NCBI GenBank assembly: GCA_963714525.1
Contig: CAVQPB010000005.1
Location: forward strand, 275,824 to 339,823
DNA length: 64,000 nucleotides
Direction: 5' to 3'
Source of the DNA: an uncultured Pseudomonadota bacterium
GTDB lineage: Bacteria > Pseudomonadota > Gammaproteobacteria > Burkholderiales > JALYOK01
The position numbers and the translations under genes were made by a program. The notes under the pieces were generated by a model. It ran no database searches. It had not been told where the DNA came from and worked only from the letters and a program-made list of their open reading frames with translations. Positions 3,492-33,754 of the stretch are shown here, one piece after another. Position 1 is the first letter of the stretch; the number at the start of each line of letters is the position of its first letter.

Positions 3492-4406
3492 TCAAGTTTT
3501 TGTAGACGACTTAATCGTTGAATTATGTTTTAGCTGTAGTTCGTAATATTCGTTTTCGAATTGTTTAGGTGATCGATAGCCGAGCGAGGAATGCAATCGC
3601 ACCGGGTTATAGAACATTTCGATGTACGCCACGATATCCGCCTTTGCGATCTCTCGCGTTTGGTAAATCTTTTGTAAATACACCCGCTCGGTCTTCAGCG
3701 TTTTCCAAAAGCTTTCCATTGCCGCATTATCGAAACAATTACCTTTGCCGCTCATGCTCGGCCGCAAGCGATAATGCTTGATGCGTTTTCGCATGGCCTT
3801 GGCGGCATACTGACTGCCCCGATCGGAATGGAAGATTGCACCCGGCGCCGGATGCTTGCGAAACCACGCCATCGTGAGTGCGTCCAGTACCAAGTCCACC
3901 GTCATCCTGGGTTTGATTGCCCAACCCACAATCGCCCGCGTATACAAATCCATCACCGCCGCCAAATACAGCCAGCCTTCTTGGGTGCGAATGTAAGTGA
4001 TGTCGCTTACGAACGCTTGGTTGGGTCCACTGGGCTGGTGTTCGGGCTCGGCTAACAAATTGGCGGCGATCGGGTTCGGATGATTCGAGTCCGTGGTCGC
4101 CTTGAACTTCCGACGCGTCTTGGCACGAATACCGTGGTTGCGCATCAATGATTTGATCCGATTCAGGCTACCCTCGTAACCGTGTTCGGCTTGCAGCACG
4201 GCACAAATTCGTGGCGCGCCGTAAATGCCACCAGAACCGTTGTGAATGGTTTTGACCAAAAACAACAAGCGCTGTTGCTCGATCACACGCGGCGCCGGCG
4301 CCCGATTCTTCCAGGCGTGATAGCCCGAGACGCACACGCTGAGCGTTTCACACGCTAGCGTCAGCGGATAGTCACACAGCGCGTTCTGAACAAAGGCGTA
4401 CTTCAC
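3492..4406 (-). CDS. IS3 transposase OrfB (DDE/integrase core)
   Basis: SDITYIRT, HSDRGSQY, GNCFDNAAMESFWKTLK and FYNPVRLHSSLGY; GTGA overlap with the orfA stop. Confidence 0.95.
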   Translation of the reverse strand: MKYAFVQNALCDYPLTLACETLSVCVSGYHAWKNRAPAPRVIEQQRLLFLVKTIHNGSGGIYGAPRICAVLQAEHGYEGSLNRIKSLMRNHGIRAKTRRKFKATTDSNHPNPIAANLLAEPEHQPSGPNQAFVSDITYIRTQEGWLYLAAVMDLYTRAIVGWAIKPRMTVDLVLDALTMAWFRKHPAPGAIFHSDRGSQYAAKAMRKRIKHYRLRPSMSGKGNCFDNAAMESFWKTLKTERVYLQKIYQTREIAKADIVAYIEMFYNPVRLHSSLGYRSPKQFENEYYELQLKHNSTIKSSTKT

Positions 4407-5276: not shown

Positions 5277-7226
5277 CTACTTAGTCCAATAGACCGTGTA
5301 GCGCACCTTGCCCCCCTCTTCGCACTCAGTGATCGCCCGCGTGCGAAAACCAGCACTCATCGCGTCTTCCCAACTGGTTACGAATTGCGCGGCGGTTAGC
5401 CCGTGGCTTGCTTTCAAGGCGGACACTTCAGGTTTCTCCGCCCAAATGGCCGAAAAGTGGAGCTTGCCCTGGTGAAGGTAGCTGTTCAGGTAGTGGAGAT
5501 GTCTCCCGCTCGCTTTGTTCTCATCGAACTTGGTCTGGTACTCCTCAGGGGTAAGGAATGAACGAGCTTCGAAATTTCCGATCGCCTCCTTGCTGTACAG
5601 AGCCGTGTAGCGCAGCTTCCCGCCCACCGAGGCCACGGATATGACCTTGGGCCTCCATCCATCGCTCTTCAACGAGTCGAACGATTTCTGATGTTCCTCG
5701 GCAGTGCTGCCGTGGTAAGCGGTAAATGCACCACTCGATTTTCTCCAGATGGCCGCATAAAGAACATCATTACCGACCACGTAAGAATCGACGTGTACCA
5801 ATGAAAATCCCTCTCCGCGGTATTTATCGAAATTTTGCTGATAGGTTGTGCCAGTCATGCTGCCATGATTTCTCCAATCGATCCCCTGTTCGTCCGTTCG
5901 GAAAATCACATTGAACTTCGCCTTTCCGTCATCGGTGTACCCATCGATCCATTCGAGCCGATAACCTGATTGGACAGCCTCGTCAAAAACCTGTTTGTAC
6001 TCGTTCGCCGGGACTCCGTGCCGAGCGTATTCGCAGGAACAGACGGATTTGCCCTGTTTCCAGAGGTCGAAGGTCGCGGGCACGTTGGAAGCAGGAACAG
6101 CTTGGGCTATGTCGCCCGCAAGACGGCTCAGACTTGATGTAGGGAACCCTATGTTTGTAGCAACGGCGACGTGAACCCCGCGCAAATCCACGTTGGTAGA
6201 GTCCTCGGTAAACATGGCCACGTAGGCCGCGCCGTAGCCAGCCCCACCGCTGTGTCCTAGTTTGCCTGATGACCCACTCCAGCCCATGCTATCGAGCTCC
6301 GCCGTCGTGTGCTTCTTAGCGAGGGAGGCCGTCAAGCTCAAGAGGCTCTGAGCAGAGCATGTGAACCCTCCCGCAGCCAAACCTAAATCGCTTTCCCTGA
6401 AGTCAGCTCTTTCAGGCTTAGCGTCTTTATTGAATTCGTGGTTGTGCGCGTCGCAGGAATCCGGGTTTGCCCTTCGCGGCCGCACGGCATGGTGCAGCTT
6501 CATGGGTTTAAGATAGTTCTCCCGAACGTAGTCCGGGTAGGATTTTCCCGACATCTTCTGGATGAGCAAGGTCCACAGGCCGAAGCCGTGATTTGAGTAT
6601 GATTTCCCATCATTTTTACCTAGTTCTTTTAATAGCTCAGGAGAGGGCGTCGTTCCGGGCTCATAAATGGGTCTCTCCTGCAGGAAGTGACGATGCACTT
6701 GTTCATAGGTCAGCTCATCTACCGAAACATCGAACAGTTCGGCCGCGCCATCATTACTCCCACTTCCTATAAAGCCAGCCTTGTGATCCAGCAGATTTTG
6801 AATGGTGATCTTTTCGTACCATGCCTTCCACTTGGCTGCATCTGGCATGTTCTTCTTAAGGCCATTTTTAATGCCAATATCGATGTCGGCATCAAACATG
6901 CCACCGAACAATCCTTTCGGACCATAAAGCTTCGTTGACTTGGGATCGATCTTCTTCGACTTCATCAACCGGAAGCCGGCTGGTCCGGTGACGACGGCTT
7001 TCGCCACACTCCCGGTTTCGCTGCGCGAGCACGGTTTCATCGGCAATTTCCTCGTTCCTTCCACGAGAGCGGAGCCGTAGCCCTTCGATAGGAGAAGCCG
7101 TCCCTCTTTTGTAACGGCAACCGTCATTCCCGGCAAGGTTTTTTCCTCAACCAATGCCTCGACGAGACTATCGACCTTTTCCTCAAGTTTATCCCAGGCC
7201 TCGCCTGTGGATTTTGGTGTATTCAT
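5277..7226 (-). CDS. Beta-lactamase-fold serine hydrolase with five C-terminal polyglycine-hydrolase-like tandem repeats (BTRD1-type)
   Basis: SxxK (GSVAK), YxN (YSN) and HxG (GHSGG); five ~50-aa repeats of the form HG...YQ..FD....G........Y..G...Y.AIW; RBS aggag; no signal peptide. Confidence 0.88.
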   Translation of the reverse strand: MNTPKSTGEAWDKLEEKVDSLVEALVEEKTLPGMTVAVTKEGRLLLSKGYGSALVEGTRKLPMKPCSRSETGSVAKAVVTGPAGFRLMKSKKIDPKSTKLYGPKGLFGGMFDADIDIGIKNGLKKNMPDAAKWKAWYEKITIQNLLDHKAGFIGSGSNDGAAELFDVSVDELTYEQVHRHFLQERPIYEPGTTPSPELLKELGKNDGKSYSNHGFGLWTLLIQKMSGKSYPDYVRENYLKPMKLHHAVRPRRANPDSCDAHNHEFNKDAKPERADFRESDLGLAAGGFTCSAQSLLSLTASLAKKHTTAELDSMGWSGSSGKLGHSGGAGYGAAYVAMFTEDSTNVDLRGVHVAVATNIGFPTSSLSRLAGDIAQAVPASNVPATFDLWKQGKSVCSCEYARHGVPANEYKQVFDEAVQSGYRLEWIDGYTDDGKAKFNVIFRTDEQGIDWRNHGSMTGTTYQQNFDKYRGEGFSLVHVDSYVVGNDVLYAAIWRKSSGAFTAYHGSTAEEHQKSFDSLKSDGWRPKVISVASVGGKLRYTALYSKEAIGNFEARSFLTPEEYQTKFDENKASGRHLHYLNSYLHQGKLHFSAIWAEKPEVSALKASHGLTAAQFVTSWEDAMSAGFRTRAITECEEGGKVRYTVYWTK

Positions 7227-7308
7227 GATTTATCTCCTGACTATAATCAATTCGACGTCCGAACCATTTCCGCAAAACCAGCGGATACTGCCTGCTAATC
7301 CATGACCA

Positions 7309-7392
7309 CTAACTAATGACCGGCGCATTTGCCAAAGCCGTTTTGACGCGTTGCCGAACAATTCGAGGGAATGTGTATTCATTGTGAAACAT
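7309..7392 (-). CDS. Putative 27-aa small ORF (MFHNEYTFPRIVRQRVKTALANAPVIS)
   Basis: Strong RBS GAAGGAGCAACATC-ATG, nearly identical to the leader of the 12408 gene; 98 bp downstream of motif copy 1. Confidence 0.4.
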   Translation of the reverse strand: MFHNEYTFPRIVRQRVKTALANAPVIS

Positions 7393-7489: not shown

Positions 7490-7518
7490 AATGGCGCAGG
7501 AATCGTCAAAAGCGGTCA
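7490..7518 (-). promoter_or_regulatory. Putative ECF promoter, copy 1 (TGACCGCTTT-N10-TGCGCCATT)
   Basis: Exact 10+9 nt match with a 10-nt spacer in four places, each upstream of a minus-strand unit. Confidence 0.75.
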
Positions 7519-7715: not shown

Positions 7716-8333
7716 ATGGAACCGGTAGTGACCTGGAACGATGTGCATGGTCTGATGAGCGATGTTCGGGTGATCGCGCGCCGCTTGCTTAGGTTCGAAG
7801 CACATGCGCAATCGCTGCAAACCACTGGACTGGTGTTGACCGGATTAAGACGGCAACGGCTCGCCGATCAAGACTGGAGTGAGGTGACGTGGCAGAATCG
7901 CGAGCGCTTTCTCGCTGCGATGTACCGCGCCATGGACCGCGCGCTAAAGGATCACGGACGGCGCCGCACGGCACAAAAACGCTGGGCTCGGCAAAGCATC
8001 GCGATAGAAGATTTGTCGCCGAACGAATTGTTACGCACCGCCGACTTTCAGCCTCACGAAATGGAACGTGTCCTCGATGAACGTCCGGAAGTCATCGAAG
8101 CCCTCGCCGAGGCACTCGCTTCGTTGGAACAAAATCATCCCGATTGGGCTTGGATCGCGAAGCATCGTTACTACGGCGCGCTGACGATCGAACAGACTGC
8201 TCAAGTCATGGGCATCGGCGAGCGCACCGTCCGACGGCACTGGGAGCAGGCACGCATCCTGCTGCACGACGAAATCGTCCGCGGCTTGAGCGCACGCGGC
8301 TACGAAGCCCAGGAGATGGAGTGCAGTCGTTAA
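7716..8333 (+). CDS. ECF-type RNA polymerase sigma factor (TIGR02999 / Sigma70_ECF family, kinase-associated)
   Basis: SLQTTGLV, WQNRERFLAAMYRAMDRALKDHGRRRTAQKR and RYYGALTIEQTAQVMGIGERTVRRHW. Confidence 0.9.
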   Translation: MEPVVTWNDVHGLMSDVRVIARRLLRFEAHAQSLQTTGLVLTGLRRQRLADQDWSEVTWQNRERFLAAMYRAMDRALKDHGRRRTAQKRWARQSIAIEDLSPNELLRTADFQPHEMERVLDERPEVIEALAEALASLEQNHPDWAWIAKHRYYGALTIEQTAQVMGIGERTVRRHWEQARILLHDEIVRGLSARGYEAQEMECSR

Positions 8334-10234
8334 GCGAAGCTCAGTGGGCTCGCTACTTCAACTTAATCGAGAGCTTGGAGGAGATGCCCGCCGATCAACG
8401 TCACGCTACGGTATGTTCGCTGCGAGCAGAAGCCGACGATGATACGGTTTTCAGATTAGTGGAGTTGCGACTCGGTTTGACCCCCGACTTCGATCGCGAC
8501 CGCAGCGGCGAACAGATACGCAATTTTGTGCTGCGGGAACAAATCGGCCGCGGCGGAATGGGCGTGATCTACCGCGCGGTGCAGATATTTTCTGACGGTA
8601 TCGAGCGCGAAGTCGCTATAAAGCTGATTCATCCCGAGTTAGTCGCACACCGGCAGGATGAAGCGCTGCAACACTTTCAGCAAGAGATCGGGGCGTTAGT
8701 TAAGCTCGAACACAGAGGCATTGCGCGCATCTATGACGGAGGCCTGCAGTGCGATACTGATGGGCGCGAAGAAACACTTTTTTTCGCGATGGAGTTCGTG
8801 CAAGGCATGCCGGTCACGGAATACGTTGCCCAGAAACGAGCCAAACTGCGCTTAACCGGGACGCTGCGACTATTCTTGCACATCTGCGATGCGGTGGCCT
8901 ACGCGCATCGCCAGGACATCATCCATCGCGACCTCAAGCCAGCCAACATCCTAGTCGATGCCGAAGGCGATCCACGCATCATCGACTTCGGCCTCGCTCA
9001 GCTTTGTGGAACTGCGATCCGTGGAAACCACCAGCTCTCCGGAACACCCGCATACATGAGTCCCGAGCAGTTAGGCGCTGATTCGCAGCCGCTTACCCCG
9101 GCGAGCGATGTCTATACGCTGGGACTCGTTCTGTGCGAGCTCTTGATAGGGCGGCGTCCGCGTAAAACGGATGTTAAATCGGCGGCATCCGAAGACCTTA
9201 GTCTCTATTACCCGGAATGCAGCCTTGAACTGCAGCAAACGGTCAACAAAGCCATCGCGGCGAGACTCACTGATCGGTACTCGTCGGTAGAAGCATTGAG
9301 TAAAGCCGTCGTTCGATGCCTCAAGGCAGCCGATTTGCAAGCGAAACGCGCGCTCCACTGCCGCGAATACTTGATCAAAAAAGTACAAAGCTTTTGGATC
9401 GACGGCGTACTTAGCAACTCACTACACGCGGCTGTTTCGATCGAACTTGGATTGGCGATAAAAGCGGACGCAGTCGACCATCCTTGGGACTTGATCATCC
9501 AAACGCGCGATGAGCTTTCACGCCCGTTACCGCCCGGCACAAAGGCAAGCGACGTGTTCCAAGAATTGAACGAGGCGATGCTGATACTCGGCGTCCCGGG
9601 CGCCGGCAAGACCACGTTGCTGCTTGAATTGACCCGCGACCTATTGACGCTAGCCAAGCACGACCGATCGCAGCGTGTGCCGGTTGTGTTCCACCTATCG
9701 ACCTGGGCGGAAAAGCGCTTGCCATTGGCCGATTGGTTGATCGACGAATTAGATAAGCGTTATTACCTGCCACCGGGCGCAGGCCGAAGTTACCTCGCAA
9801 GCGGCCAACTCGCGGTGTTGCTCGATGGATTGGACGAAGTGGCGCCTGCATATCGGGCCTCGTGTGTTAACGCCATCAACGAATTTAGCAAGACCCATAA
9901 CTCGATCCCGGTGGCCGTATGCAGCCGCATGGTGGACTATGAAACGATGTCGGTGCGGCTGCAACTGAATGGTGCGGTGGTCATTCAAGCGCTCACGCGC
10001 GAGCAGATCGACGACTACTTCGAGCGCGCGGGAGAACCTTTGGCCGGCGTGCGGATTGCGCTTGGCCATGACGAGCAGTTGTGGGCGTTGATGAAAACGC
10101 CATTGCTGCTGAGCATTGCGGCTCTGGCCTACCATAAGAGTTCATTCCATACACCAAAAATAGCGGCCACGCTGGACGAAAGGCGCAGCGCAGCTTTTCG
10201 CGGCGTACACCGAAGCCATGTTCGCGCGGCGTAG
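8321..10234 (+). CDS. Hanks-type Ser/Thr kinase fused to a NACHT NTPase (N-terminal part; the frame continues through three +1 shifts to 11161)
   Basis: GTG start with RBS aggaga overlapping the sigma gene; GRGGMG, VAIK, HRDLKPAN, DFG and GTPAYMSPEQ; Walker A GVPGAGKT and Walker B LLDGLDEV. Confidence 0.9.
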   Translation: MQSLSEAQWARYFNLIESLEEMPADQRHATVCSLRAEADDDTVFRLVELRLGLTPDFDRDRSGEQIRNFVLREQIGRGGMGVIYRAVQIFSDGIEREVAIKLIHPELVAHRQDEALQHFQQEIGALVKLEHRGIARIYDGGLQCDTDGREETLFFAMEFVQGMPVTEYVAQKRAKLRLTGTLRLFLHICDAVAYAHRQDIIHRDLKPANILVDAEGDPRIIDFGLAQLCGTAIRGNHQLSGTPAYMSPEQLGADSQPLTPASDVYTLGLVLCELLIGRRPRKTDVKSAASEDLSLYYPECSLELQQTVNKAIAARLTDRYSSVEALSKAVVRCLKAADLQAKRALHCREYLIKKVQSFWIDGVLSNSLHAAVSIELGLAIKADAVDHPWDLIIQTRDELSRPLPPGTKASDVFQELNEAMLILGVPGAGKTTLLLELTRDLLTLAKHDRSQRVPVVFHLSTWAEKRLPLADWLIDELDKRYYLPPGAGRSYLASGQLAVLLDGLDEVAPAYRASCVNAINEFSKTHNSIPVAVCSRMVDYETMSVRLQLNGAVVIQALTREQIDDYFERAGEPLAGVRIALGHDEQLWALMKTPLLLSIAALAYHKSSFHTPKIAATLDERRSAAFRGVHRSHVRAA

Positions 10235-11161
10235 CAAAATCGCCCGCTATACGCCTGAGCAATCGATGCGCTGGCTGGGATGGCTGGCGAGTACCATGCA
10301 ACGTCATCACCAAAGCGTGTTCTACTTAGAATGGATGCAGCCCGATTGGCTGTTGCGTCCCATCGAGCGCTGGGCGGTCAGTGTCGGGTCAGTGATGCTG
10401 TGCGGTGGGTTGGTCGGCATCGTGGTCGGCTGGCGGCGCTAGCCTCGCGAGCGAATATGCGTTGAGTTTCCCGATTTCATTGACGCTCGGCTTGGTCGGT
10501 GGGCTGGTTTTCGGGTTGCTAGGCCACGGCGATCAAGATGCGTCCGATTTTCCGGTTGGGCTGGTCATGGGCAGCGCTGCGCGACGGCTTGGGGCGCAAG
10601 ATGATTCTGGCGTTGGGCGCCGGCGCGTTGTTGAGTGCTGGCATTGCGCTGGTATTCGATGCGGCGGTGGGCATTGCGGTTGGACTGGCGATGACTGTGG
10701 CATTTTGCTACTTCGGCGGACTCGATTTGGAACGGTTCAGAAATGACCCCGGCCACTTCACCGTACCCAACGAAGGGATACGGCGATCGCTGCGTAACGC
10801 CTTACTCGGGGCTGTCGTCGGTACCGTCGGCGGTGGTCTGGCGGGAGGGTTGGCCGGCGGCGCGGCAGGTGCGTTGTTCGGCGCCACCGTTTTCGCACTA
10901 ATTAGTGCGATGCTAGTTGGCGGCTACACGTGTTTGCAGCATCTTATTCTTAGACTCCTGTTATGGCGAAACCGGTTCACACCTTTGCGCTATGTTGATT
11001 TTCTAGAATATGCCGTCGAGCGTATTCTTCTGCGCCGAGTGGGAGGCGGTTATGCGTTCGTCCATCGTGCGATGCTAGAGTATTTCGCCGCGACCTACAC
11101 ACCTAAAGCCCTCGTACAGGTAGGCCGTGGCCGGGGGTCCGGCCACGGCTCAATGGGTTAA
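10192..11161 (+). pseudogene. Frameshifted continuation of the kinase-NACHT gene: multi-TM Gly-rich region and conserved C-terminal module
   Basis: QLFAAYTEAMF...WLGWLASTM...FYLEWMQPDWL, then GLVGGLVFG helices, then LQHLILRLLLW...YVDFLEYAVERILLRRVGGGYAFVH; breaks at about 10190, 10430 and 10530; may be a sequencing artefact. Confidence 0.8.
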
Positions 11162-11162
11162 G

Positions 11163-11627
11163 CTATGGCGCAGGCGACGGGCCTGACACCGGCGCCAGTG
11201 GATTATTAAAGTTATCGCGACATTCCACAAAAACGCGATAGGATTCCGTGCTGGCGCCGCTTTTTTCGACCAGCAGGTAATATTTGCCGGCGCCCATGTT
11301 GACGTTGACGGTCGCGCTAGGAAATTCCCCGATCAATGGCGGATTAATTTGCGCTTGTAAACCATCGACCGCATCGGTGGTTTCGCTCTTCGTTACTCCC
11401 TTGATCATCTTCAGGGTGACGAGCGGCGTGTGCACGGGCGCCCGATCTGTTACGTTTCCCGAAATGTGATGCGTTCCCGCCGGACACTCAAGCACAAATA
11501 AGTCAACGCTGCTTGCCGGAACACCCATGCTATCGTTGATCACCGCTGCCTGCGAAATTGGTGCGCTCGCCAGGGCGATGCAAAGTGGGGTAAGCATGCT
11601 TGCTCTCTTTAATGCGTTCGTCTTCAT
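11163..11627 (-). CDS. Hypothetical exported beta-rich protein, 154 aa; paralog of the N-terminal domain of 12539-13846
   Basis: Signal peptide, two mature Cys, GKYYLLVEK strand; about 75% identity to the paralog by manual alignment. Confidence 0.85.
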   Translation of the reverse strand: MKTNALKRASMLTPLCIALASAPISQAAVINDSMGVPASSVDLFVLECPAGTHHISGNVTDRAPVHTPLVTLKMIKGVTKSETTDAVDGLQAQINPPLIGEFPSATVNVNMGAGKYYLLVEKSGASTESYRVFVECRDNFNNPLAPVSGPSPAP

Positions 11628-11744
11628 GATCGATCCTTTCAGCCGCCACCATCGGTGGACGACAAGTTCGTTTAAAAAGAAGTCAATTTCCTACTCAGGC
11701 AAGAGGCGATGACACATTGTTCGCGTTTCTCTTCCTGTAATCTC

Positions 11745-11773
11745 AATGGCGCAAGATTGGGCGAAAGCGGTCA
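11745..11773 (-). promoter_or_regulatory. Putative ECF promoter, copy 2
   Basis: Plus strand aatggcgca-agattgggcg-aaagcggtca; 118 bp upstream of the ATG at 11627. Confidence 0.75.
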
Positions 11774-11841: not shown

Positions 11842-12408
11842 TCAATTGGGAAGCTGCGCGTCCAAGCAATTGACGGTCATGGACACGTCCGTTACCGTCG
11901 CATTCGCGCCACCGGTCTTACGCGCCAGGCAGTAAATGTTTTGGTAATAGGTTTGGGGGACGTTGAAGAAGCACGTGGTGGTTACCTCTTTCATCCGATT
12001 GTCCGGAATAGCCGCATCCGGAATCATCGCATTGGCAGGAATGTTGTTGAATCCGAGCGTGCGCTCACATGCCCCATTCGGGAGCGGGTTCACATTGTTG
12101 AGCGACAAGGTAAAGAGATAGACGTGTGGGGGGCCGAAATAGCCTGGATTGGCGAAATCCGCGCTACAAACTGCCGTGCAGTAACGTGGCATCACTGCGT
12201 TGACCGGGACAGACCGAAGAACCGTCCAGGCTGCGCCCACGGGTTGGTCCGCATTTGTAGCGCTACCGCCCGCCGCGTCCGCCGCCAACAGGTTCGGCGA
12301 CAGCAATGCAAGGGATGCAGGCAAGGCCAGCGCGATCAGCGTCTTGAGAATCGGCCCTTCTGTGTGTTGCCGCGATGATTGCTTTAATGTCATTTTTCCA
12401 GAAGACAT
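11842..12408 (-). CDS. Hypothetical exported Cys-rich protein, 188 aa
   Basis: RBS gaaggag, signal peptide (...PNLLA/ADA) and six Cys in the mature part. Confidence 0.8.
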   Translation of the reverse strand: MSSGKMTLKQSSRQHTEGPILKTLIALALPASLALLSPNLLAADAAGGSATNADQPVGAAWTVLRSVPVNAVMPRYCTAVCSADFANPGYFGPPHVYLFTLSLNNVNPLPNGACERTLGFNNIPANAMIPDAAIPDNRMKEVTTTCFFNVPQTYYQNIYCLARKTGGANATVTDVSMTVNCLDAQLPN

Positions 12409-12507: not shown

Positions 12508-12536
12508 AATGGCGCAAAAACCGGGAAAAGCGGTCA
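12508..12536 (-). promoter_or_regulatory. Putative ECF promoter, copy 3
   Basis: Plus strand aatggcgca-aaaaccggga-aaagcggtca; 100 bp upstream of the ATG at 12408. Confidence 0.75.
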
Positions 12537-12538
12537 GC

Positions 12539-13846
12539 TCAGGAGGGGCCGCCCGTCATCCAGGCCTTGCGGATTAGCCGCCCGCACTTCACCGACTCGA
12601 TGGCTGCGCCGCCGACGGCCGCGCGCGCGACGATGCCGTAATAGGTCTTGTCCGCGTCGATCCAGGGATAGAAGCCGAAAGCACCCGGGCTGCTGAACGC
12701 GCCATCGCCCACCGCCGGATCGTCCTCCACCCAATGCCCTAGCGAGTATTGCCATTTCTCGTCGGCGGGAATCGGTGTGTTCACGGCCGACGCGCACGTG
12801 GCCGGATTCGTGCACACCGCATGCGTGCCCAGCGCGCGGCCCATGCGCAGGTCGCCGGTGAGCATCTTGCGCAGGAACTTCGCGTATTGGCGGGCGCTGG
12901 TGCGCACGCCGCCGGCTGGCTGCGGCTGCGTATACGTCATGGCGATCTCGGCGCCGATCTGGCCGCGTACTTCTGCGGCAAGCCCAGCGTTGTTCAGGCC
13001 GTCCAACCCTTCCAGGCTTGCGTGCTTTTGCATGTGGCCGCCGTTGTAGAAGAACTTGCCGTCGGTGGCCCCGTCGTACTCGCCGTTGCTGCCGCTGGCC
13101 AGGCACAAACCCACCGTGGGGTTGTTGTTGCAGTTGTCGAAACTGCTGTAGCCGCTTCGGAAGTTGAGGAATTTGATGTCCTGCGCGGTGAGCGCGCCCA
13201 AACGCTTTTCGACGACATAGGCGCCGTATATCCACTTCGAAGCGGACGCCACATTGAGCAAGGTGTCCGCGCTGTAGACCGGGGCGCGCACCGAACCGCT
13301 TGCGATGCGCGCGGCCTGGTCGCCGATCTCCCAGTAGAACGACGGCAGCGATGCGCAGGCGTTGCTCATGCTTTGCGCGGTGGCCGTGGCGGCGGCGACG
13401 CGGGCGGCATTAGTCAGGTCGGGGGCGGGACCTGCCACTGGCGGGAGAACATTGTTGAACGCGTCGCGGCAGGTCACGGAGACCCGATAGATCTCCGGAC
13501 CGGGACCGCTTTTCTCGACCAGCAAGTAGTATGTGCCGGCGCCTAGATTGGCGTTCACGGTCGGGCTGGGGAACTCGCCGCCATCCACTGGATCGGTAGT
13601 TTCGCTCTTGCCCACCCCCTTGATGATCTTCAACGTTACCAGCGGCGCTTGAAGCGGCGCTCGGTCCGTGATGTTGCCCGAGACATGGTGAGTGCCGGCG
13701 GGGCACTGGAGCACGAACAGATCGACGCTTGCCGTGGGAACGCCCAGGCTGTCGTTGATGATCGCGGCCGGCGAAATAGTTGCACTCGCCAGGGCGATGC
13801 AAAGCGGGGTGAGTATGCTTGCGCTCTTTAAAACTTTGGTTTTCAT
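12539..13846 (-). CDS. Exported two-domain protein: unknown N-terminal beta domain plus beta-lactamase-like serine hydrolase
   Basis: Start MKTKVLK; SxxK (VASASKW), FFYNGGHMQ and SSPGAFGFYPWID. Confidence 0.85.
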   Translation of the reverse strand: MKTKVLKSASILTPLCIALASATISPAAIINDSLGVPTASVDLFVLQCPAGTHHVSGNITDRAPLQAPLVTLKIIKGVGKSETTDPVDGGEFPSPTVNANLGAGTYYLLVEKSGPGPEIYRVSVTCRDAFNNVLPPVAGPAPDLTNAARVAAATATAQSMSNACASLPSFYWEIGDQAARIASGSVRAPVYSADTLLNVASASKWIYGAYVVEKRLGALTAQDIKFLNFRSGYSSFDNCNNNPTVGLCLASGSNGEYDGATDGKFFYNGGHMQKHASLEGLDGLNNAGLAAEVRGQIGAEIAMTYTQPQPAGGVRTSARQYAKFLRKMLTGDLRMGRALGTHAVCTNPATCASAVNTPIPADEKWQYSLGHWVEDDPAVGDGAFSSPGAFGFYPWIDADKTYYGIVARAAVGGAAIESVKCGRLIRKAWMTGGPS

Positions 13847-13961
13847 GGTTGATCCTTTCAGTCGCCACGATGGCAGTGGCCCGTTGAAAAAAAAGAAGCC
13901 GAAATGGCTACCCAAGTAAGAGGCGATGACAGGGTGTTCGCGTTTCTCTGTCGGTATTCAC

Positions 13962-13990
13962 AATGGCGCAAAATTGAGCGAAAGCGGTCA
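13962..13990 (-). promoter_or_regulatory. Putative ECF promoter, copy 4
   Basis: Plus strand aatggcgca-aaattgagcg-aaagcggtca; 116 bp upstream of the ATG at 13846. Confidence 0.75.
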
Positions 13991-14241: not shown

Positions 14242-14386
14242 TGTCATTGCCCCCCTGACTAAAGCATTCGAGGGCAGGCTACAGCGGGAATCCAGTGTCT
14301 TTTGCTCAACGACACTGGGTCCCCGCCTTCGCGGGGACGACATACTATTACTTTGTAATTGGATTCCCGCTTTCGCGGGAATGACA
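14242..14386. repeat. Composite cluster of the GTCATT...AATGAC palindromic repeat family
   Basis: gcgggaatcc, ccccgccttcgcggggacgac and ggattcccgctttcgcgggaatgaca units. Confidence 0.7.
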
Positions 14387-16229: not shown

Positions 16230-16340
16230 CTAAGGAAGCTCTGAATAATCGAATTCTAAGTAAGATCAAGGCGAACAAGCAAAAAATATCGACGCAGCAT
16301 ATGGATGATATGTAAGGAGATATTTTTTGTGAGTAACCGA
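16230..16340 (+). mobile_element. MITE-like element, copy A (right end truncated)
   Basis: Starts CTAAGGAAGCTCTGA; the interior aligns with the copy at 33571-33719. Confidence 0.7.
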
Positions 16341-16342
16341 AA

Positions 16343-16522
16343 TCAATACTTCCAATTCTTGCGGCGATTTACCCAGCGTAAACGAATGACCGTCAAGGCG
16401 GCGCCCAGCAGCAGGGCGCCGGACACTTGACCTATTTGCACATCGGTCGAGGCAAACGCGGTTAAGCCGCTGATGGTGTAAACGTAGGGAGAGAGTTCGT
16501 ACCAGATCGTTTCGAGATCCAT
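16343..16522 (-). CDS. Small membrane protein, 59 aa (below the ORF-track cutoff)
   Basis: MDLETIWYELSPYVYTISGLTAFASTDVQIGQVSGALLLGAALTVIRLRWVNRRKNWKY; RBS aagga; two hydrophobic segments and a basic tail. Confidence 0.65.
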   Translation of the reverse strand: MDLETIWYELSPYVYTISGLTAFASTDVQIGQVSGALLLGAALTVIRLRWVNRRKNWKY

Positions 16523-19656: not shown

Positions 19657-19724
19657 TGTCATTCCCGCGCAGGCGGGAATCTAATTTCACGGCCTAATGG
19701 ATTCCCGCCTGCGCGGGAATGACA
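19657..19724. repeat. Palindromic REP/dRS3-like pair
   Basis: tgtcattcccgcgcaggcgggaatc ... gattcccgcctgcgcgggaatgaca, perfect 25-bp IR. Confidence 0.88.
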
Positions 19725-19766
19725 AATCGCATATATCATGCGTGTTCTAAACCCTATTCTACCAAA

Positions 19767-23278: not shown

Positions 23279-24514
23279 ATGAAGTCCGTTTGGTTGACGA
23301 CGAATTTTCTGCACCCGATGAACCGGGGTGGAAAAATTCGCACCTACAACATTCTGAAAGAACTCTATAAGCAGGACGAGGTGACCTACCTCGGTTTCGA
23401 TGGGTTAATTCCCGGAGAAGAGCCGCTAAAGCGCGTCGAATGAATATTGCTCGCGGGCGGTCGCGGTAAACCATCGCGAAACCGAACGCGGCCAGGCCGC
23501 GTTTTTTCTGGAGCTTGCGGGAAACCTATTTTCGTCGCTACCTTATTCGGTAGCGAAGTTACGCTCTGGCGAAATCGCACAAAAATTGCAGGAAGAACTC
23601 GCTCGACCCGACCTCGATTATCTCGTCTGCGATTTCGTTCACGCCGCGGTCAACATGCCGGGTCAGGTTCGAATTCCGACTATTTTGTTTCAACATAACG
23701 TCGAGGCGGTGATCTGGCAGCGCCTGTATCAGCAGCAAACTAATCCCATCATTCGCATGTACTACGAAAAGCAATGGCGCCGCATGTTCAATTTCGAACG
23801 CGATGCCTGCCGTCGATTCGATGCGGTTATCGCTGTGTCGGACGCAGATGCGGAAAAGATGCGTGCGGACTATGGCCTGCAACAGGTGCTGGCGATTCCA
23901 ACAGCCGTCGATACCGACTATTTCCAGCCTAGACCCGACGTGGTGCGAGCCGCGAACACGTTGGTCTTTACCGGTTCCCTCGACTGGACGCCGAACATCG
24001 ACGGACTGCGCTGGTTTATCGATTCGGTGTTGCCCATCGTAGCTGCGCACGGCGCCGAACGTTAAACTCAAGGTGGTTGGGCGCAATCCACGGCCTGATT
24101 TAGTTGCCGGCATCAAGGGCCGCCCTGGCGTTGAATTGGTGGGCCGGGTGCCCGATGTGCGGCCCCATGTGCAAGGCGCAACGGCATCGGTCGTGCCGTT
24201 GCTGGTGGGCGGTGGAACGCGCATGAAGATATTCGAATCCCTAGCGCTGGAAACACCGGTTGTCTCCACCACCATCGGCGCCGAAGGTTTGCCGCTGCAA
24301 CACGATAAACACATACTCATCGCCGACACACCGGAAGATTTCGCGCAGCAGACGATCAAAACTGCTAACTGAGCCGGCGCAGAGCGCGGCCTTGGGTTTA
24401 GCGGGTAGCCAGTACGTCAGAGAGAAATTCGGCGCCGCTGCCGTTGCGCGCGAATTTGCTGCAATTTGTCACGCGACCGTCGAGCGCATACGCGCGGCTC
24501 AGCAGAAATCCTAG
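23279..24514 (+). pseudogene. Glycosyltransferase family 4 protein broken by three +1 frameshifts (possible artefact)
   Basis: GGKIRTYN..KEL, QHNVE, VFTGSLDWTPN and GGGTRMKIFE...TTIGAEG; breaks at about 23435, 24055 and 24361. Confidence 0.85.
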
Positions 24515-32384: not shown

Positions 32385-32471
32385 CGCTACATATCCTCCA
32401 AATGCGGCGTCACCATTTTTCCTTCGCGCCTTGTCTTGCTTAGAACTCGAAATAAATCAGAGCTTCCCTAG
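32385..32471 (-). mobile_element. MITE-like element, copy B (partial)
   Basis: About 87 bp near-identical to the reverse complement of 33571-33660; contains the stop codon of the radical SAM gene. Confidence 0.75.
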
Positions 32472-33570: not shown

Positions 33571-33719
33571 TTAAGGAAGCTCTGATTTATTTCGAGTTCC
33601 AAGCAAGACAAGGCGCGAAGGAAAAATGGTGACGCGGCATATGGGTGATATGTAAGGAACCATTTTTCCTGAGCAACGCAGGATTGCGACGAAATCGGAA
33701 TAAATCAGAGCTTCCTTAA
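33571..33719 (+). mobile_element. MITE-like element, copy C (complete, 149 bp)
   Basis: 25-bp TIR TTAAGGAAGCTCTGATTTATTYCGA, 24/25 match. Confidence 0.85.
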
Positions 33720-33754
33720 TGGATTGTACGCCTACGTCGGCGTAAAATCGTGTC

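What the first reader, a model, noticed from the sequence alone, without database searches (positions are those of the whole stretch)
8321..11161. Unusual architecture: ECF-partner Ser/Thr kinase fused to a NACHT NTPase and a Gly-rich multi-TM tail
The N-terminal helical segment (QWARYFNLIESLEEMPADQR) resembles the leader seen on ECF-associated kinases. It is followed by a complete kinase, then NACHT Walker A and B, TM helices, and a conserved C-terminal LLRRVGGGYAFVH module. From memory, that module is typical of membrane NACHT proteins of Actinobacteria, Cyanobacteria and Chloroflexi. ECF-partner kinases I know of more often carry TPR or extracytoplasmic sensor domains. Inference: NACHT oligomerisation triggers kinase trans-autophosphorylation, as in NLR-kinase signalling, and the gene was probably acquired horizontally.
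Basis: partly seen in the sequence, partly recalled or inferred. Interest (0 to 1): 0.75.

Follow-up and report, generated by a model that had tools for sequence, protein, structure and literature searches.

The report
NLR-like membrane kinase paired with sigma factor
This is a mobile two-gene signalling unit, a sigma factor of the phosphorylation-switched type next to a membrane kinase controlled by an NLR-like NTPase, and the three frameshifts that break the kinase gene are most likely errors of this assembly.

Summary
An ECF sigma gene (7716-8333) overlaps by 13 nt a gene (8321-11161) encoding a 60-aa helical leader, a complete Hanks kinase, a NACHT NTPase and six Gly-rich TM helices. The conserved GGGYAFVHR motif closes the protein. 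Three 1-base insertions break the frame.

The architecture is not rare. About 22 intact orthologues (49-76% identity, 913-965 aa) align end to end. The NACHT-TM module occurs in about 6,700 representative clusters. Kinase effectors and TM blocks inserted in NACHT are already catalogued.

The less ordinary part is the coupling:
- An ECF43-type sigma with the QTT switch motif lies directly upstream in 6 of 6 orthologue loci.
- The leader is present in all 8 sigma-linked kinases and absent in 4 unlinked ones.
- A bipartite motif, TGACCGCTTT-N10-TGCGCCATT, precedes exported-protein genes around the cassette here and in three homologue loci.

The frameshifts are probably assembly errors. Close relatives lack all three bases. 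Each insertion looks like two alleles of a SNP written in tandem. Downstream substitutions are mostly synonymous. mrdA and a glycosyltransferase carry the same lesion type.

The cassette is absent from 60 related genomes, which fits horizontal acquisition. Phospho-transfer and NACHT-driven activation are inferred, not shown.

The parts
7716..8333 (+). ECF sigma factor (205 aa) of the ECF43 type. SLQTTGLV lies at 7812-7835 in region 2.2, and T37 is the predicted phospho-acceptor.
   Evidence: PF07638 scores 67.6 bits against a cut-off of 21.1. TIGR02999 scores 80 bits, below its 126 cut-off. The third position of the motif is S/T in 5 of 5 cassette sigmas. The ECF43 hallmark is described in PMC13147305. 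This is the best PF07638 match in the genome.
8321..8500 (+). N-terminal helical leader of the kinase, about 60 aa and three helices. It is the candidate sigma-docking element.
   Evidence: AF2 helices 6-20, 24-37 and 41-50 in the homologue P0002. A leader HMM hits every orthologue, plus P0026 (sigma-linked) and P0025 (context not examined). It hits none of the four kinases without a sigma neighbour, whose kinase domains begin at the N-terminus.
8531..9295 (+). Hanks-type Ser/Thr kinase domain with all catalytic motifs.
   Evidence: Pkinase 7e-41. Motif positions. The fold matches M. tuberculosis PknB with TM 0.82.
9296..9440 (+). Long linker helix between the kinase and NACHT.
   Evidence: AF2 helix 324-365 in P0002.
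9455..10186 (+). NACHT nucleotide-binding domain and helical domain. Walker A at 9590-9616, Walker B at 9815-9838, TPLLLS at 10097-10114. This is the last part read in frame 2.
   Evidence: PF05729 26.2 bits, and the family is on record for nearly all the orthologues. The model of a kinase-less family member matches NLRC4, NOD2, NAIP5 and NLRP3 at E 7e-7 and higher, probability 1.0.
10187..10189 (+). First frame break (frame 2 to 0). Relatives have one base fewer here.
   Evidence: Relatives read ACG or AGG where the window reads AGCG.
10191..10370 (+). First half of the winged-helix domain (QLFAAYTEAMFARR ... SVFYLEWMQPDW), read in frame 0.
   Evidence: AF2 helices 619-636 and 646-662.
10371..10966 (+). 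Six Gly-rich TM helices inserted in the winged-helix domain. External loops are very short and two conserved loops face the cytoplasm. The block crosses frame breaks 2 and 3.
   Evidence: Hydropathy. AF2 helices 681-883 in P0002 and 330-537 in P0036. Conservation.
10431..10434 (+). Second frame break (frame 0 to 1). Relatives have one base fewer here.
   Evidence: Relatives read GGC, TGC, TGG or TAT where the window reads TGGC.
10535..10537 (+). Third frame break (frame 1 to 2). Relatives have one base fewer here.
11000..11161 (+). Second half of the winged-helix domain: a helix, a beta-hairpin wing carrying GGGYAFVHR, a last helix, then the stop codon.
   Evidence: Invariant G907 G908 G909 Y910 F912 H914 R915. 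AF2 H891-900, E904-907, E910-913, H916-925. This module is found in 6,709 representative clusters.
7490..7518 (-). Copy 1 of the bipartite motif TGACCGCTTT-N10-TGCGCCATT. It is a candidate sigma-dependent promoter and faces the 649-aa beta-lactamase-fold/BTRD1 gene (5277-7226).
11745..11773 (-). Motif copy 2, 118 nt upstream of the exported 154-aa protein gene (11163-11627).
12508..12536 (-). Motif copy 3, 100 nt upstream of the exported 188-aa protein gene (11842-12408).
13962..13990 (-). Motif copy 4, upstream of the gene for an exported beta-domain fused to a serine-hydrolase-like domain (12539-13915).

Best explanation
The locus is a self-contained, horizontally spread signalling cassette of two genes.

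Gene 1 is an ECF sigma factor of the ECF43 kind. Its region 2.2 carries an uncharged Q-T-T motif instead of the acidic RNA-polymerase contact. By analogy with EcfP and EcfK it should be inactive until that threonine (T37) is phosphorylated.

Gene 2 is its cognate Hanks kinase. The usual single-pass receptor domain is replaced by a NACHT (NLR-type STAND) NTPase. The winged-helix domain of that NTPase is split by six Gly-rich membrane helices with almost no periplasmic loops.

Proposed mechanism (inferred):
1. A change sensed within the membrane shifts the helix bundle.
2. This frees the winged helix from the nucleotide-binding domain.
3. NACHT exchanges nucleotide and oligomerises, bringing the N-terminal kinase domains together for trans-autophosphorylation.
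4. The 60-aa leader docks the sigma factor and the kinase phosphorylates T37.
5. The sigma factor then binds RNA polymerase and reads promoters of the form TGACCGCTTT-N10-TGCGCCATT. These sit in front of genes for exported proteins and hydrolases beside the cassette and at about five other places in the genome.

Shown: the domains, their order, the TM insertion, the sigma adjacency, the switch motif, the co-variation of leader and sigma, and the co-conservation of motif and cassette.

Inferred: phospho-transfer, the NACHT trigger, and the promoter role of the motif.

The three 1-base insertions that break the kinase gene are most likely (about 0.8) consensus errors of this assembly, so the organism probably has an intact gene.
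For: Domains and motifs.

Intact orthologues aligning end to end.

Structure:
- AF2 model of P0002 (pLDDT 81.5) gives leader, kinase, long helix, NACHT, split winged helix and TM block.
- The kinase fold matches PknB.
- The NACHT-TM model matches NLRC4, NOD2 and NLRP3.

Sigma coupling:
- A sigma gene lies directly upstream in 6 of 6 orthologue loci whose other neighbours are unrelated.
- It is also upstream of P0026 and two genes upstream of P0101.
- It is absent beside four kinase-NACHT proteins that lack a leader.
- QTT(G/A), CASE or PVT occupies the ECF43 switch site in 5 of 5 sigmas.
- Precedent for phosphorylation-activated ECF43 sigmas: EcfK/PknS and EcfP/PknT (PMC13147305; PMC7826278).

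Motif:
- 4 exact copies in the window against 0 expected.
- 9 copies in the genome against 0 for the reversed control.
- 5 copies beside the cassette in L082, L083 and L086, and 0 in 1.06 Mb of other loci.
- Most downstream genes begin with a signal peptide.

Assembly-error reading:
- Contigs from six metagenome runs at 95-99% identity lack one base at each site they cover. Site 1 is covered in six runs, site 2 in four, site 3 in one.
- At sites 1 and 2 the window's four letters equal two alleles seen in relatives written in tandem. Site 3 fits the same pattern only with an assumed allele.
- Downstream of the first break, substitutions against a relative are 16 synonymous to 8 conservative non-synonymous in the homologues' frames.
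- The only mrdA (PBP2) gene is split by the same +1 type of shift.
- A glycosyltransferase at 23279-24514 carries three more.
Against: - No experiment or expression data exist for any member.
- TIGR02999 scores below its cut-off, and the ECF group was not assigned with the ECF classification's own models.
- No shared promoter was found upstream of the sigma genes themselves, so autoregulation is not evident.
- The motif is missing at up to 3 mismatches near the cassette in L084 and L085.
- The cargo proteins are unrelated between loci, which a housekeeping stress regulon would not predict.
- The leader HMM finds nothing in 80 kinase loci from other phyla.
- The assembly's own reads could not be found, so a real pseudogene is not excluded.
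- The sigma gene of the closest homologue locus (L082) carries an amber codon. Cassettes are therefore sometimes truly inactivated.
Confidence: 0.6

Rival explanations
1. The cassette is a conflict or anti-phage system of the bacterial NLR type. The NACHT-TM module senses an invader at the membrane. The kinase is the effector that shuts the cell down by broad phosphorylation. The sigma factor and exported cargo are an accessory or secondary arm.
For: - The same NACHT-TM module is fused to TIR, BTAD, cyclase, HTH and DnaJ-type N-terminal domains in other proteins. That effector swapping is described for defence NACHTs.
- Distribution is patchy and genomic contexts vary.
- Cargo differs between loci.
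- In L082 the sigma gene is inactivated by an amber codon, as expected for a costly system.
- In the window the cassette sits in a variable island next to an IS3-family transposase.
Against: - PADLOC models match only the kinase domain in the listed best 25, and the matches are generic.
- No known defence genes lie next to any of the loci examined.
- A dedicated sigma partner, a sigma-specific leader and a co-conserved promoter-like motif all point to a transcriptional output, not cell shut-down.
- The two readings are not exclusive. A transcription-based defence response would satisfy both.
Confidence: 0.2
2. The three insertions are real. In this strain the kinase gene is a young pseudogene that yields only a 637-aa kinase-NACHT stump without winged helix or membrane anchor, and the sigma factor is left without its activator.
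For: - The truncated 637-aa product is what is called on the public assembly (P0005).
- Across 60 kb, coding indels against relatives are confined to two genes and are not spread evenly. Decay of dead genes would produce that pattern too.
- A homologue locus shows a genuine-looking nonsense mutation in the partner gene.
- The source reads are not available to settle the matter.
Against: - All 7 frame breaks I checked in this assembly are single-base insertions. That runs against the deletion bias usually seen in bacterial pseudogenes (my own knowledge, not tested here).
- They include the only mrdA gene.
- At sites 1 and 2 the insertion falls in a codon that varies among relatives and equals two alleles in tandem.
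- Three indels in 350 nt go with only about 4% substitution divergence, and that divergence is two-thirds synonymous in the homologues' frames. That is too little neutral change for three independent indels.
Confidence: 0.18
3. The shifts are decoded. Programmed +1 frameshifting or four-base codons produce the full-length protein from the sequence as written.
For: - All breaks are +1 and sum to +3, so the last 208 residues are back in the starting frame.
- Site 2 can be read with a four-base CGGC word.
- A second gene shows the same +1, +1, +1 pattern.
Against: - The three sites share no sequence context, no slippery or hungry codon pattern and no common four-base word.
- Relatives at 95-99% identity simply lack the bases.
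- The same lesion in mrdA and in a glycosyltransferase at unrelated sequences argues for a technical cause.
Confidence: 0.01

Closest known systems
ECF43 sigma / Hanks kinase pairs: EcfP-PknT (Vibrio parahaemolyticus) and EcfK-PknS (Xanthomonas citri)
   Same: - The sigma and kinase genes are adjacent.
- The sigma factor lacks the acidic region 2.2 motif and has a Thr at the switch position (QTTG here, QTTA consensus, QATE in EcfK).
- No anti-sigma gene is present.
- The kinase is membrane-bound.
- The output is a small dedicated regulon.
   Different: - PknT and PknS are described as transmembrane receptor kinases. Here the sensor and regulator is a NACHT STAND NTPase with six TM helices inserted in its winged helix and almost no periplasmic part.
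- TIGR02999 scores below its cut-off.
- Phosphorylation has not been shown.
Bacterial NACHT (bNACHT / NLR-related) proteins as surveyed by Kibby et al. and Kaur et al.
   Same: - Tripartite logic: N-terminal effector, central NACHT, sensor part.
[quoted passage not shown]
- The predicted fold matches NLRC4, NOD2 and NLRP3.
   Different: - Those studied protect against phage through effectors acting on the cell.
- None that I found in the searched literature is paired with a sigma factor or a defined promoter motif.
- No defence phenotype or defence neighbourhood is seen here.
Animal NOD1/NOD2-RIPK2 signalling
   Same: NACHT oligomerisation brings a kinase into proximity, and the output is transcription of secreted defence factors. 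This is an analogy of logic only.
   Different: - In animals the kinase is a separate protein recruited through CARD domains, and it acts through ubiquitin and NF-kB.
- Here the kinase is fused to NACHT and would act directly on a sigma factor.
- No common descent of the pathway is implied.
STAND-linked actinobacterial regulators such as PknK (kinase + MalT-like ATPase + TPR) and AfsR-type SARPs
   Same: A Hanks kinase or a transcription factor is fused to a STAND NTPase that gates output. This comparison rests on my own knowledge and was not tested here.
   Different: - They belong to a different STAND clade (MalT/AP-ATPase-like, not NACHT).
- They are soluble, use TPR sensors and have no sigma partner.

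Membership tests
ECF43-type (phosphorylation-activated) ECF sigma factors | ECF sigma architecture (sigma2 + sigma4) of the PF07638 / TIGR02999 lineage | tested here: met
   PF07638 scores 67.6 bits against a cut-off of 21.1. However, TIGR02999 scores only 80 bits against a cut-off of 126, so the protein is not a member of that curated subfamily model.
ECF43-type (phosphorylation-activated) ECF sigma factors | A Hanks-type kinase gene conserved next to the sigma gene | tested here: met
   13-nt overlap in the window. The same arrangement occurs in 6 of 6 orthologue loci.
ECF43-type (phosphorylation-activated) ECF sigma factors | Uncharged motif with a conserved Thr (QTTA consensus) in region 2.2 in place of the acidic DxxD contact | tested here: met
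   SLQTTGLV at residues 33-40. The third position is S/T in 5 of 5 cassette sigmas. The criterion is taken from PMC13147305.
ECF43-type (phosphorylation-activated) ECF sigma factors | Placement in group ECF43 by the ECF classification's own models or tree | not tested
   Those models are not among the libraries at hand.
ECF43-type (phosphorylation-activated) ECF sigma factors | Activity depends on phosphorylation by the partner kinase | not testable with these tools
   Needs a kinase assay and phospho-ablative or phospho-mimetic mutants.
Hanks-type Ser/Thr protein kinases | Glycine loop, VAIK lysine, alphaC glutamate, HRDLKPxN, DFG and (A/S)PE motifs, plus the kinase fold | tested here: met
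   All motifs were located. Pkinase 7e-41. The model matches PknB with TM 0.82.
NACHT clade of STAND NTPases | Walker A GxxGxGKT, Walker B hhhhDGhDE, following helical and winged-helix domains, and an NLR-like fold | tested here: met
   Motifs. PF05729 scores 26.2 against 26.7 in the window and is on record for nearly all the orthologues. The model of family member P0036 matches NLRC4, NOD2, NAIP5 and NLRP3 at probability 1.0.
Membrane NACHT proteins with the TM block inside the module | TM helices lie between the first helices of the winged-helix domain and its wing, and the protein ends with the wing motif GGGYxFxHR | tested here: met
   Order of secondary structure in two AF2 models. Six TM helices by hydropathy. 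The match lies at the C-terminal end in most of the longer hits among 6,709 clusters. Packing of the two winged-helix halves was not inspected in coordinates.
Known anti-phage defence systems (PADLOC; bNACHT defence genes) | Match of the NACHT or sensor part to a defence model, or a defence-island neighbourhood | tested here: not met
   The listed PADLOC hits cover only the kinase domain (residues about 60-350). The neighbours are exported proteins, a hydrolase and a transposase.
Known anti-phage defence systems (PADLOC; bNACHT defence genes) | Protection against phage | not testable with these tools
   Needs plaque assays in a laboratory strain.

The most novel reading that the evidence does not exclude
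A bacterial NLR-like membrane receptor signals by transcription instead of cell suicide. NACHT oligomerisation activates a fused kinase, the kinase switches on a dedicated sigma factor by phosphorylation, and the sigma factor induces a mobile, locus-specific set of secreted proteins. In logic this would be a prokaryotic counterpart of NOD-RIPK2-to-transcription signalling. It would also be a third way, besides anti-sigma factors and simple receptor kinases, of coupling the envelope to an ECF sigma factor.
Probability: 0.3. Interest if true: 0.75.

Novelty: new variant of a known kind. Interest (0 to 1): 0.5.

Why it matters
Both halves are known kinds: phosphorylation-switched ECF43 sigma factors, and bacterial NACHT proteins with kinase effectors and membrane inserts. 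Their conserved pairing was not found in the literature I searched.

If the pairing works as proposed, it gives a NACHT protein with a simple, measurable output: one sigma factor and one promoter motif. That would make activation of a bacterial NLR relative easy to assay. It would also show that STAND switches can feed transcription directly.

For annotation, the result is a warning. This assembly carries single-base insertions in at least three genes, one of them mrdA. Its apparent pseudogenes should not be taken at face value.

Tried and rejected
- Shared promoter upstream of the sigma genes in six loci: none found.
- HMM of the leader against 80 kinase loci from other phyla: no hit, so homology of the leader to the 'classic' ECF-kinase leader is not shown by sequence. 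P0101 does carry that classic leader.
- Sequence search of the NACHT part, with the TM block cut out, against solved structures: nothing. The fold search succeeded instead.
- Fold search with the full-length model: dominated by kinases and uninformative for NACHT.
- Search for the assembly's own reads: two searches, best share of words 0.35 and 0.17. All are relatives, none is the source.
- PADLOC: only generic kinase hits.
- Pfam on cargo proteins of homologue loci: no families.
- Four-base codon (CGGN) or programmed +1 frameshifting: rejected, because the sites share no context.
- Full-length orthologues in species-representative genomes: the scan was saturated by kinase-domain hits and the best were only 37-42% identical over the kinase.


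Full report
**What is there.**
On the + strand an ECF sigma gene (7716-8333; PF07638, 1.8e-18) overlaps by 13 nt a GTG at 8321. From there frame 2 encodes three things. The first is a 60-aa leader that includes QWARYFNLIESLEEMPADQR. The second is a complete Hanks kinase (Pkinase 7e-41) with the glycine loop, VAIK, HRDLKPAN, DFG and SPE motifs intact. The third is a NACHT NTPase with Walker A GVPGAGKTT and Walker B LLDGLDE.

Frame 2 stops at TAG 10232. The protein continues in frame 0 (QLFAAYTEAMFARR ... SVFYLEWMQPDW plus the first TM helix). It then moves to frame 1 (second TM helix) and back to frame 2 from about 10536 to the stop at 11161. A read-through of 945 aa, made for searching only, aligns over 98% of its length with intact proteins. 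Those of 939-950 aa are 76% identical, and about twenty more of 913-965 aa are 49-58% identical. G-G-G-Y-x-F-x-H-R is invariant near the C-terminus.

**Are the three frameshifts real?**
Evidence from relatives:
- Contigs of six metagenome runs (biofilter, biofilm, wastewater and one unlabelled), 95-99% identical to the window, lack one base at each site they cover. Site 1 (10188/10189) is covered in six runs, site 2 (10431-10434) in four, and site 3 (10535) in one.
- The 86%-identical DNA of homologue locus L082 shows the same three gaps.

Four further observations point to a technical cause:
1. At sites 1 and 2 the insertion falls in a codon that varies among relatives, and the window's four letters equal two alleles written in tandem. 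AGCG compares with ACG and AGG. TGGC compares with TGG, TGC and GGC. At site 3, CAAG fits the same pattern if CAA and CAG were the alleles, but only CAG was seen in a near relative and the CAA-ATG allele is assumed.
2. Downstream of the first break, 24 substitutions against relative X2 split into 16 synonymous and 8 conservative non-synonymous when read in the homologues' frames. That is the mark of a translated gene. It is also far too little neutral change to go with three independent indels in 350 nt.
3. The lesion type recurs. A GT4-like glycosyltransferase at 23279-24514 is broken by three +1 shifts at 23439, 24046 and 24356, again absent from relatives. The only mrdA (PBP2) gene of the genome is split by a +1 shift.
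4. All seven breaks I checked are single-base insertions, and none is in a homopolymer.

Elsewhere in 60 kb, indels against relatives are intergenic or near gene ends. The errors therefore cluster in stretches where strains differ. That pattern fits a consensus built from mixed-strain reads.

I put the artefact reading at about 0.8. The assembly's own reads could not be found, so a young pseudogene remains possible.

**Architecture.**
The AF2 model of the intact homologue P0002 has pLDDT 81.5. In order it gives:
- three leader helices (6-50);
- the kinase (69-312);
- a long helix (324-365);
- the NACHT core (about 379-605);
- two helices of the winged-helix domain (619-662);
- membrane helices (681-883);
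- a helix, a beta-hairpin carrying GGGYAFVHR and a last helix (891-925).

Hydropathy gives six TM helices. An even number puts both halves of the winged helix in the cytoplasm. By that topology the external loops are only a few residues long, while two well-conserved loops (GHGDQxRPxxRLxWSW and PNxGIRxSLRN) face the cytoplasm. This last point is my inference from the sequence.

A second model, of the kinase-less family member P0036, shows the same order. Its best PDB matches are NLRC4, NOD2, NAIP5 and NLRP3. The kinase part matches PknB. The TM block is therefore an insert in the NACHT winged helix and not a tail.

**How common is it?**
- The last 208 residues find 6,709 representative clusters at E<=0.001 among 1.84 billion proteins. 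In most of the longer hits the match lies at the C-terminal end.
- Among the best 120 word-index hits, about 45 combine Pkinase with NACHT. Others carry TIR, BTAD, cyclase, HTH or nothing in front of the same NACHT-TM module.
- Named members come from Betaproteobacteria, Halothiobacillaceae, Skermanella, Pyrinomonadaceae, Egibacteraceae, Ktedonobacteraceae/Dictyobacter and Coleofasciculaceae.

The architecture by itself is a known kind.

**The sigma link.**
- In all six orthologue loci examined (P0002, P0009, P0023, P0018, P0015, P0021) a PF07638 sigma gene sits directly upstream, overlapping or abutting the kinase gene. No other neighbour is shared with the window.
- The link extends to P0026, which is 43% identical and has a sigma region 4 fragment upstream.
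- It also extends to P0101, arranged as sigma, kinase, kinase-NACHT.
- Four more distant kinase-NACHT proteins (P0028, P0045, P0063, P0069) have no sigma neighbour.
- The leader follows the sigma. All eight sigma-linked kinases have an N-terminal helical leader of about 60 aa. The four unlinked ones start directly with the kinase glycine loop.
- The sigma factor carries SLQTTGLV in region 2.2, and across five cassette sigmas the third motif position is always S or T. According to PMC13147305, ECF43 sigmas replace the acidic DxxD contact by QTTA. The Thr is conserved in 88% of ECF43 members and is phosphorylated by the neighbouring Hanks kinase in EcfP and EcfK.
- This is the only strong PF07638 member in the genome.

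**Candidate output.**
Following an earlier first-reader note, I tested a repeated motif.
- TGACCGCTTT-N10-TGCGCCATT occurs four times exactly in the window, at 7490, 11745, 12508 and 13962, all on the - strand. Zero are expected by chance.
- Each copy lies upstream of a - strand gene, about 100-120 nt for three of them and about 260 nt for the fourth. The genes are a 649-aa beta-lactamase-fold/BTRD1 protein, two small exported proteins, and an exported beta-domain fused to a hydrolase-like domain.
- The genome holds nine copies at up to 2 mismatches and none of the reversed control. The five copies outside the island also precede genes whose products begin with signal peptides.
- The motif recurs beside the cassette in L082 (2 copies), L083 (2) and L086 (1), mostly 70-95 nt upstream of exported-protein genes. 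It is absent from 1.06 Mb of other loci. L084 and L085 lack it.
- The cargo proteins are unrelated between loci and mostly match no Pfam family.

Co-conservation of motif and cassette supports, but does not prove, that this is the promoter read by the sigma factor.

**Origin.**
SoxB and other genes place the host among sulfur-oxidising Betaproteobacteria, with SoxB 61-69% identical to Sulfuritalea, Sulfuricella and Rhodocyclaceae.

No genome among 60 relatives has a match to the NACHT part. That set includes 9 same-genus and 4 same-family species.

Strain-level relatives in metagenomes do carry the cassette, but they lack the adjacent 649-aa gene. An IS3-family transposase lies at 3492-4406. 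GC content is unremarkable. Horizontal acquisition by this species lineage is the simplest reading.

**Verdict.**
The elements are real and the gene is probably intact in the organism. The kinase-NACHT-TM architecture is common and already catalogued. Its conserved pairing with an ECF43-type sigma factor, a sigma-specific leader and a co-travelling promoter-like motif is a new variant. I did not find it described in the papers I searched. The mechanism, from membrane cue through NACHT assembly and kinase activation to phospho-sigma and exported proteins, is inferred from the parts and from ECF43 and NLR precedents. A defence role is not excluded.

Noticed in passing
window 23279-24514 (+): A GT4-like glycosyltransferase is split into four ORF pieces by three +1 shifts at about 23439, 24046 and 24356. 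Relatives in three metagenomes lack one base at the sites they cover. This is the same pattern as in the kinase gene.
   Followed up: partly
genome contig C21:58109-59891 (-), loci L177/L179: The only mrdA (PBP2) gene over the TIGR03423 cut-off is split into two frames at profile positions 484-489 by a +1 shift. A broken essential gene points to assembly error.
   Followed up: yes
window 7490-7518, 11745-11773, 12508-12536, 13962-13990 (-); also C6:387788, C6:388516, C22:66073, C22:76821, C1:25924: The bipartite motif TGACCGCTTT-N10-TGCGCCATT occurs nine times in the genome, each time upstream of an exported-protein gene. It is also found beside the cassette in three metagenomic homologue loci.
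   Followed up: yes
L082:5393-6013: In the locus of the closest intact kinase homologue (76% identity) the sigma gene carries an in-frame TAG where the window has TGG (Trp60). In that contig it is the partner gene that is inactivated.
   Followed up: partly
window 5277-7226 (-): A 649-aa protein has an N-terminal beta-lactamase fold and five BTRD1 (polyglycine-hydrolase-type) repeats, with no signal peptide. The stretch 5337-7337 has no cover in four metagenomes that hold the rest of the region, so the gene is strain-specific.
   Followed up: partly
window 11163-11652 and 13428-13871: The 154-aa exported protein and the N-terminal part of the 458-aa exported hydrolase-like protein are paralogues (71-76% DNA identity). 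Their 92-nt leaders, which include the motif, are 85% alike.
   Followed up: no
window 3492-4406 (-): An IS3-family transposase (rve, HTH_21) sits at the edge of the variable island.
   Followed up: no
window about 1166-1191, 14298-14386, 16231-16354, 19658-19727, 32400-32470, 33640-33720: Short stretches show very high summed depth and many joints and loose ends in all metagenomes. They are probably dispersed repeat elements shared by many organisms or copies.
   Followed up: no
genome C22, loci L172 (2481-2975) and L173 (2728-3223): Two 95%-identical paralogues of a motif-preceded exported 164-aa protein. The L173 copy is out of frame through a -1 and a +2 difference inside a 50-nt cluster of substitutions.
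   Followed up: partly
whole genome: At 5.5 Mb the genome is much larger than the nine same-genus species representatives (2.2-4.1 Mb). Estimated contamination is 3.55%.
   Followed up: no
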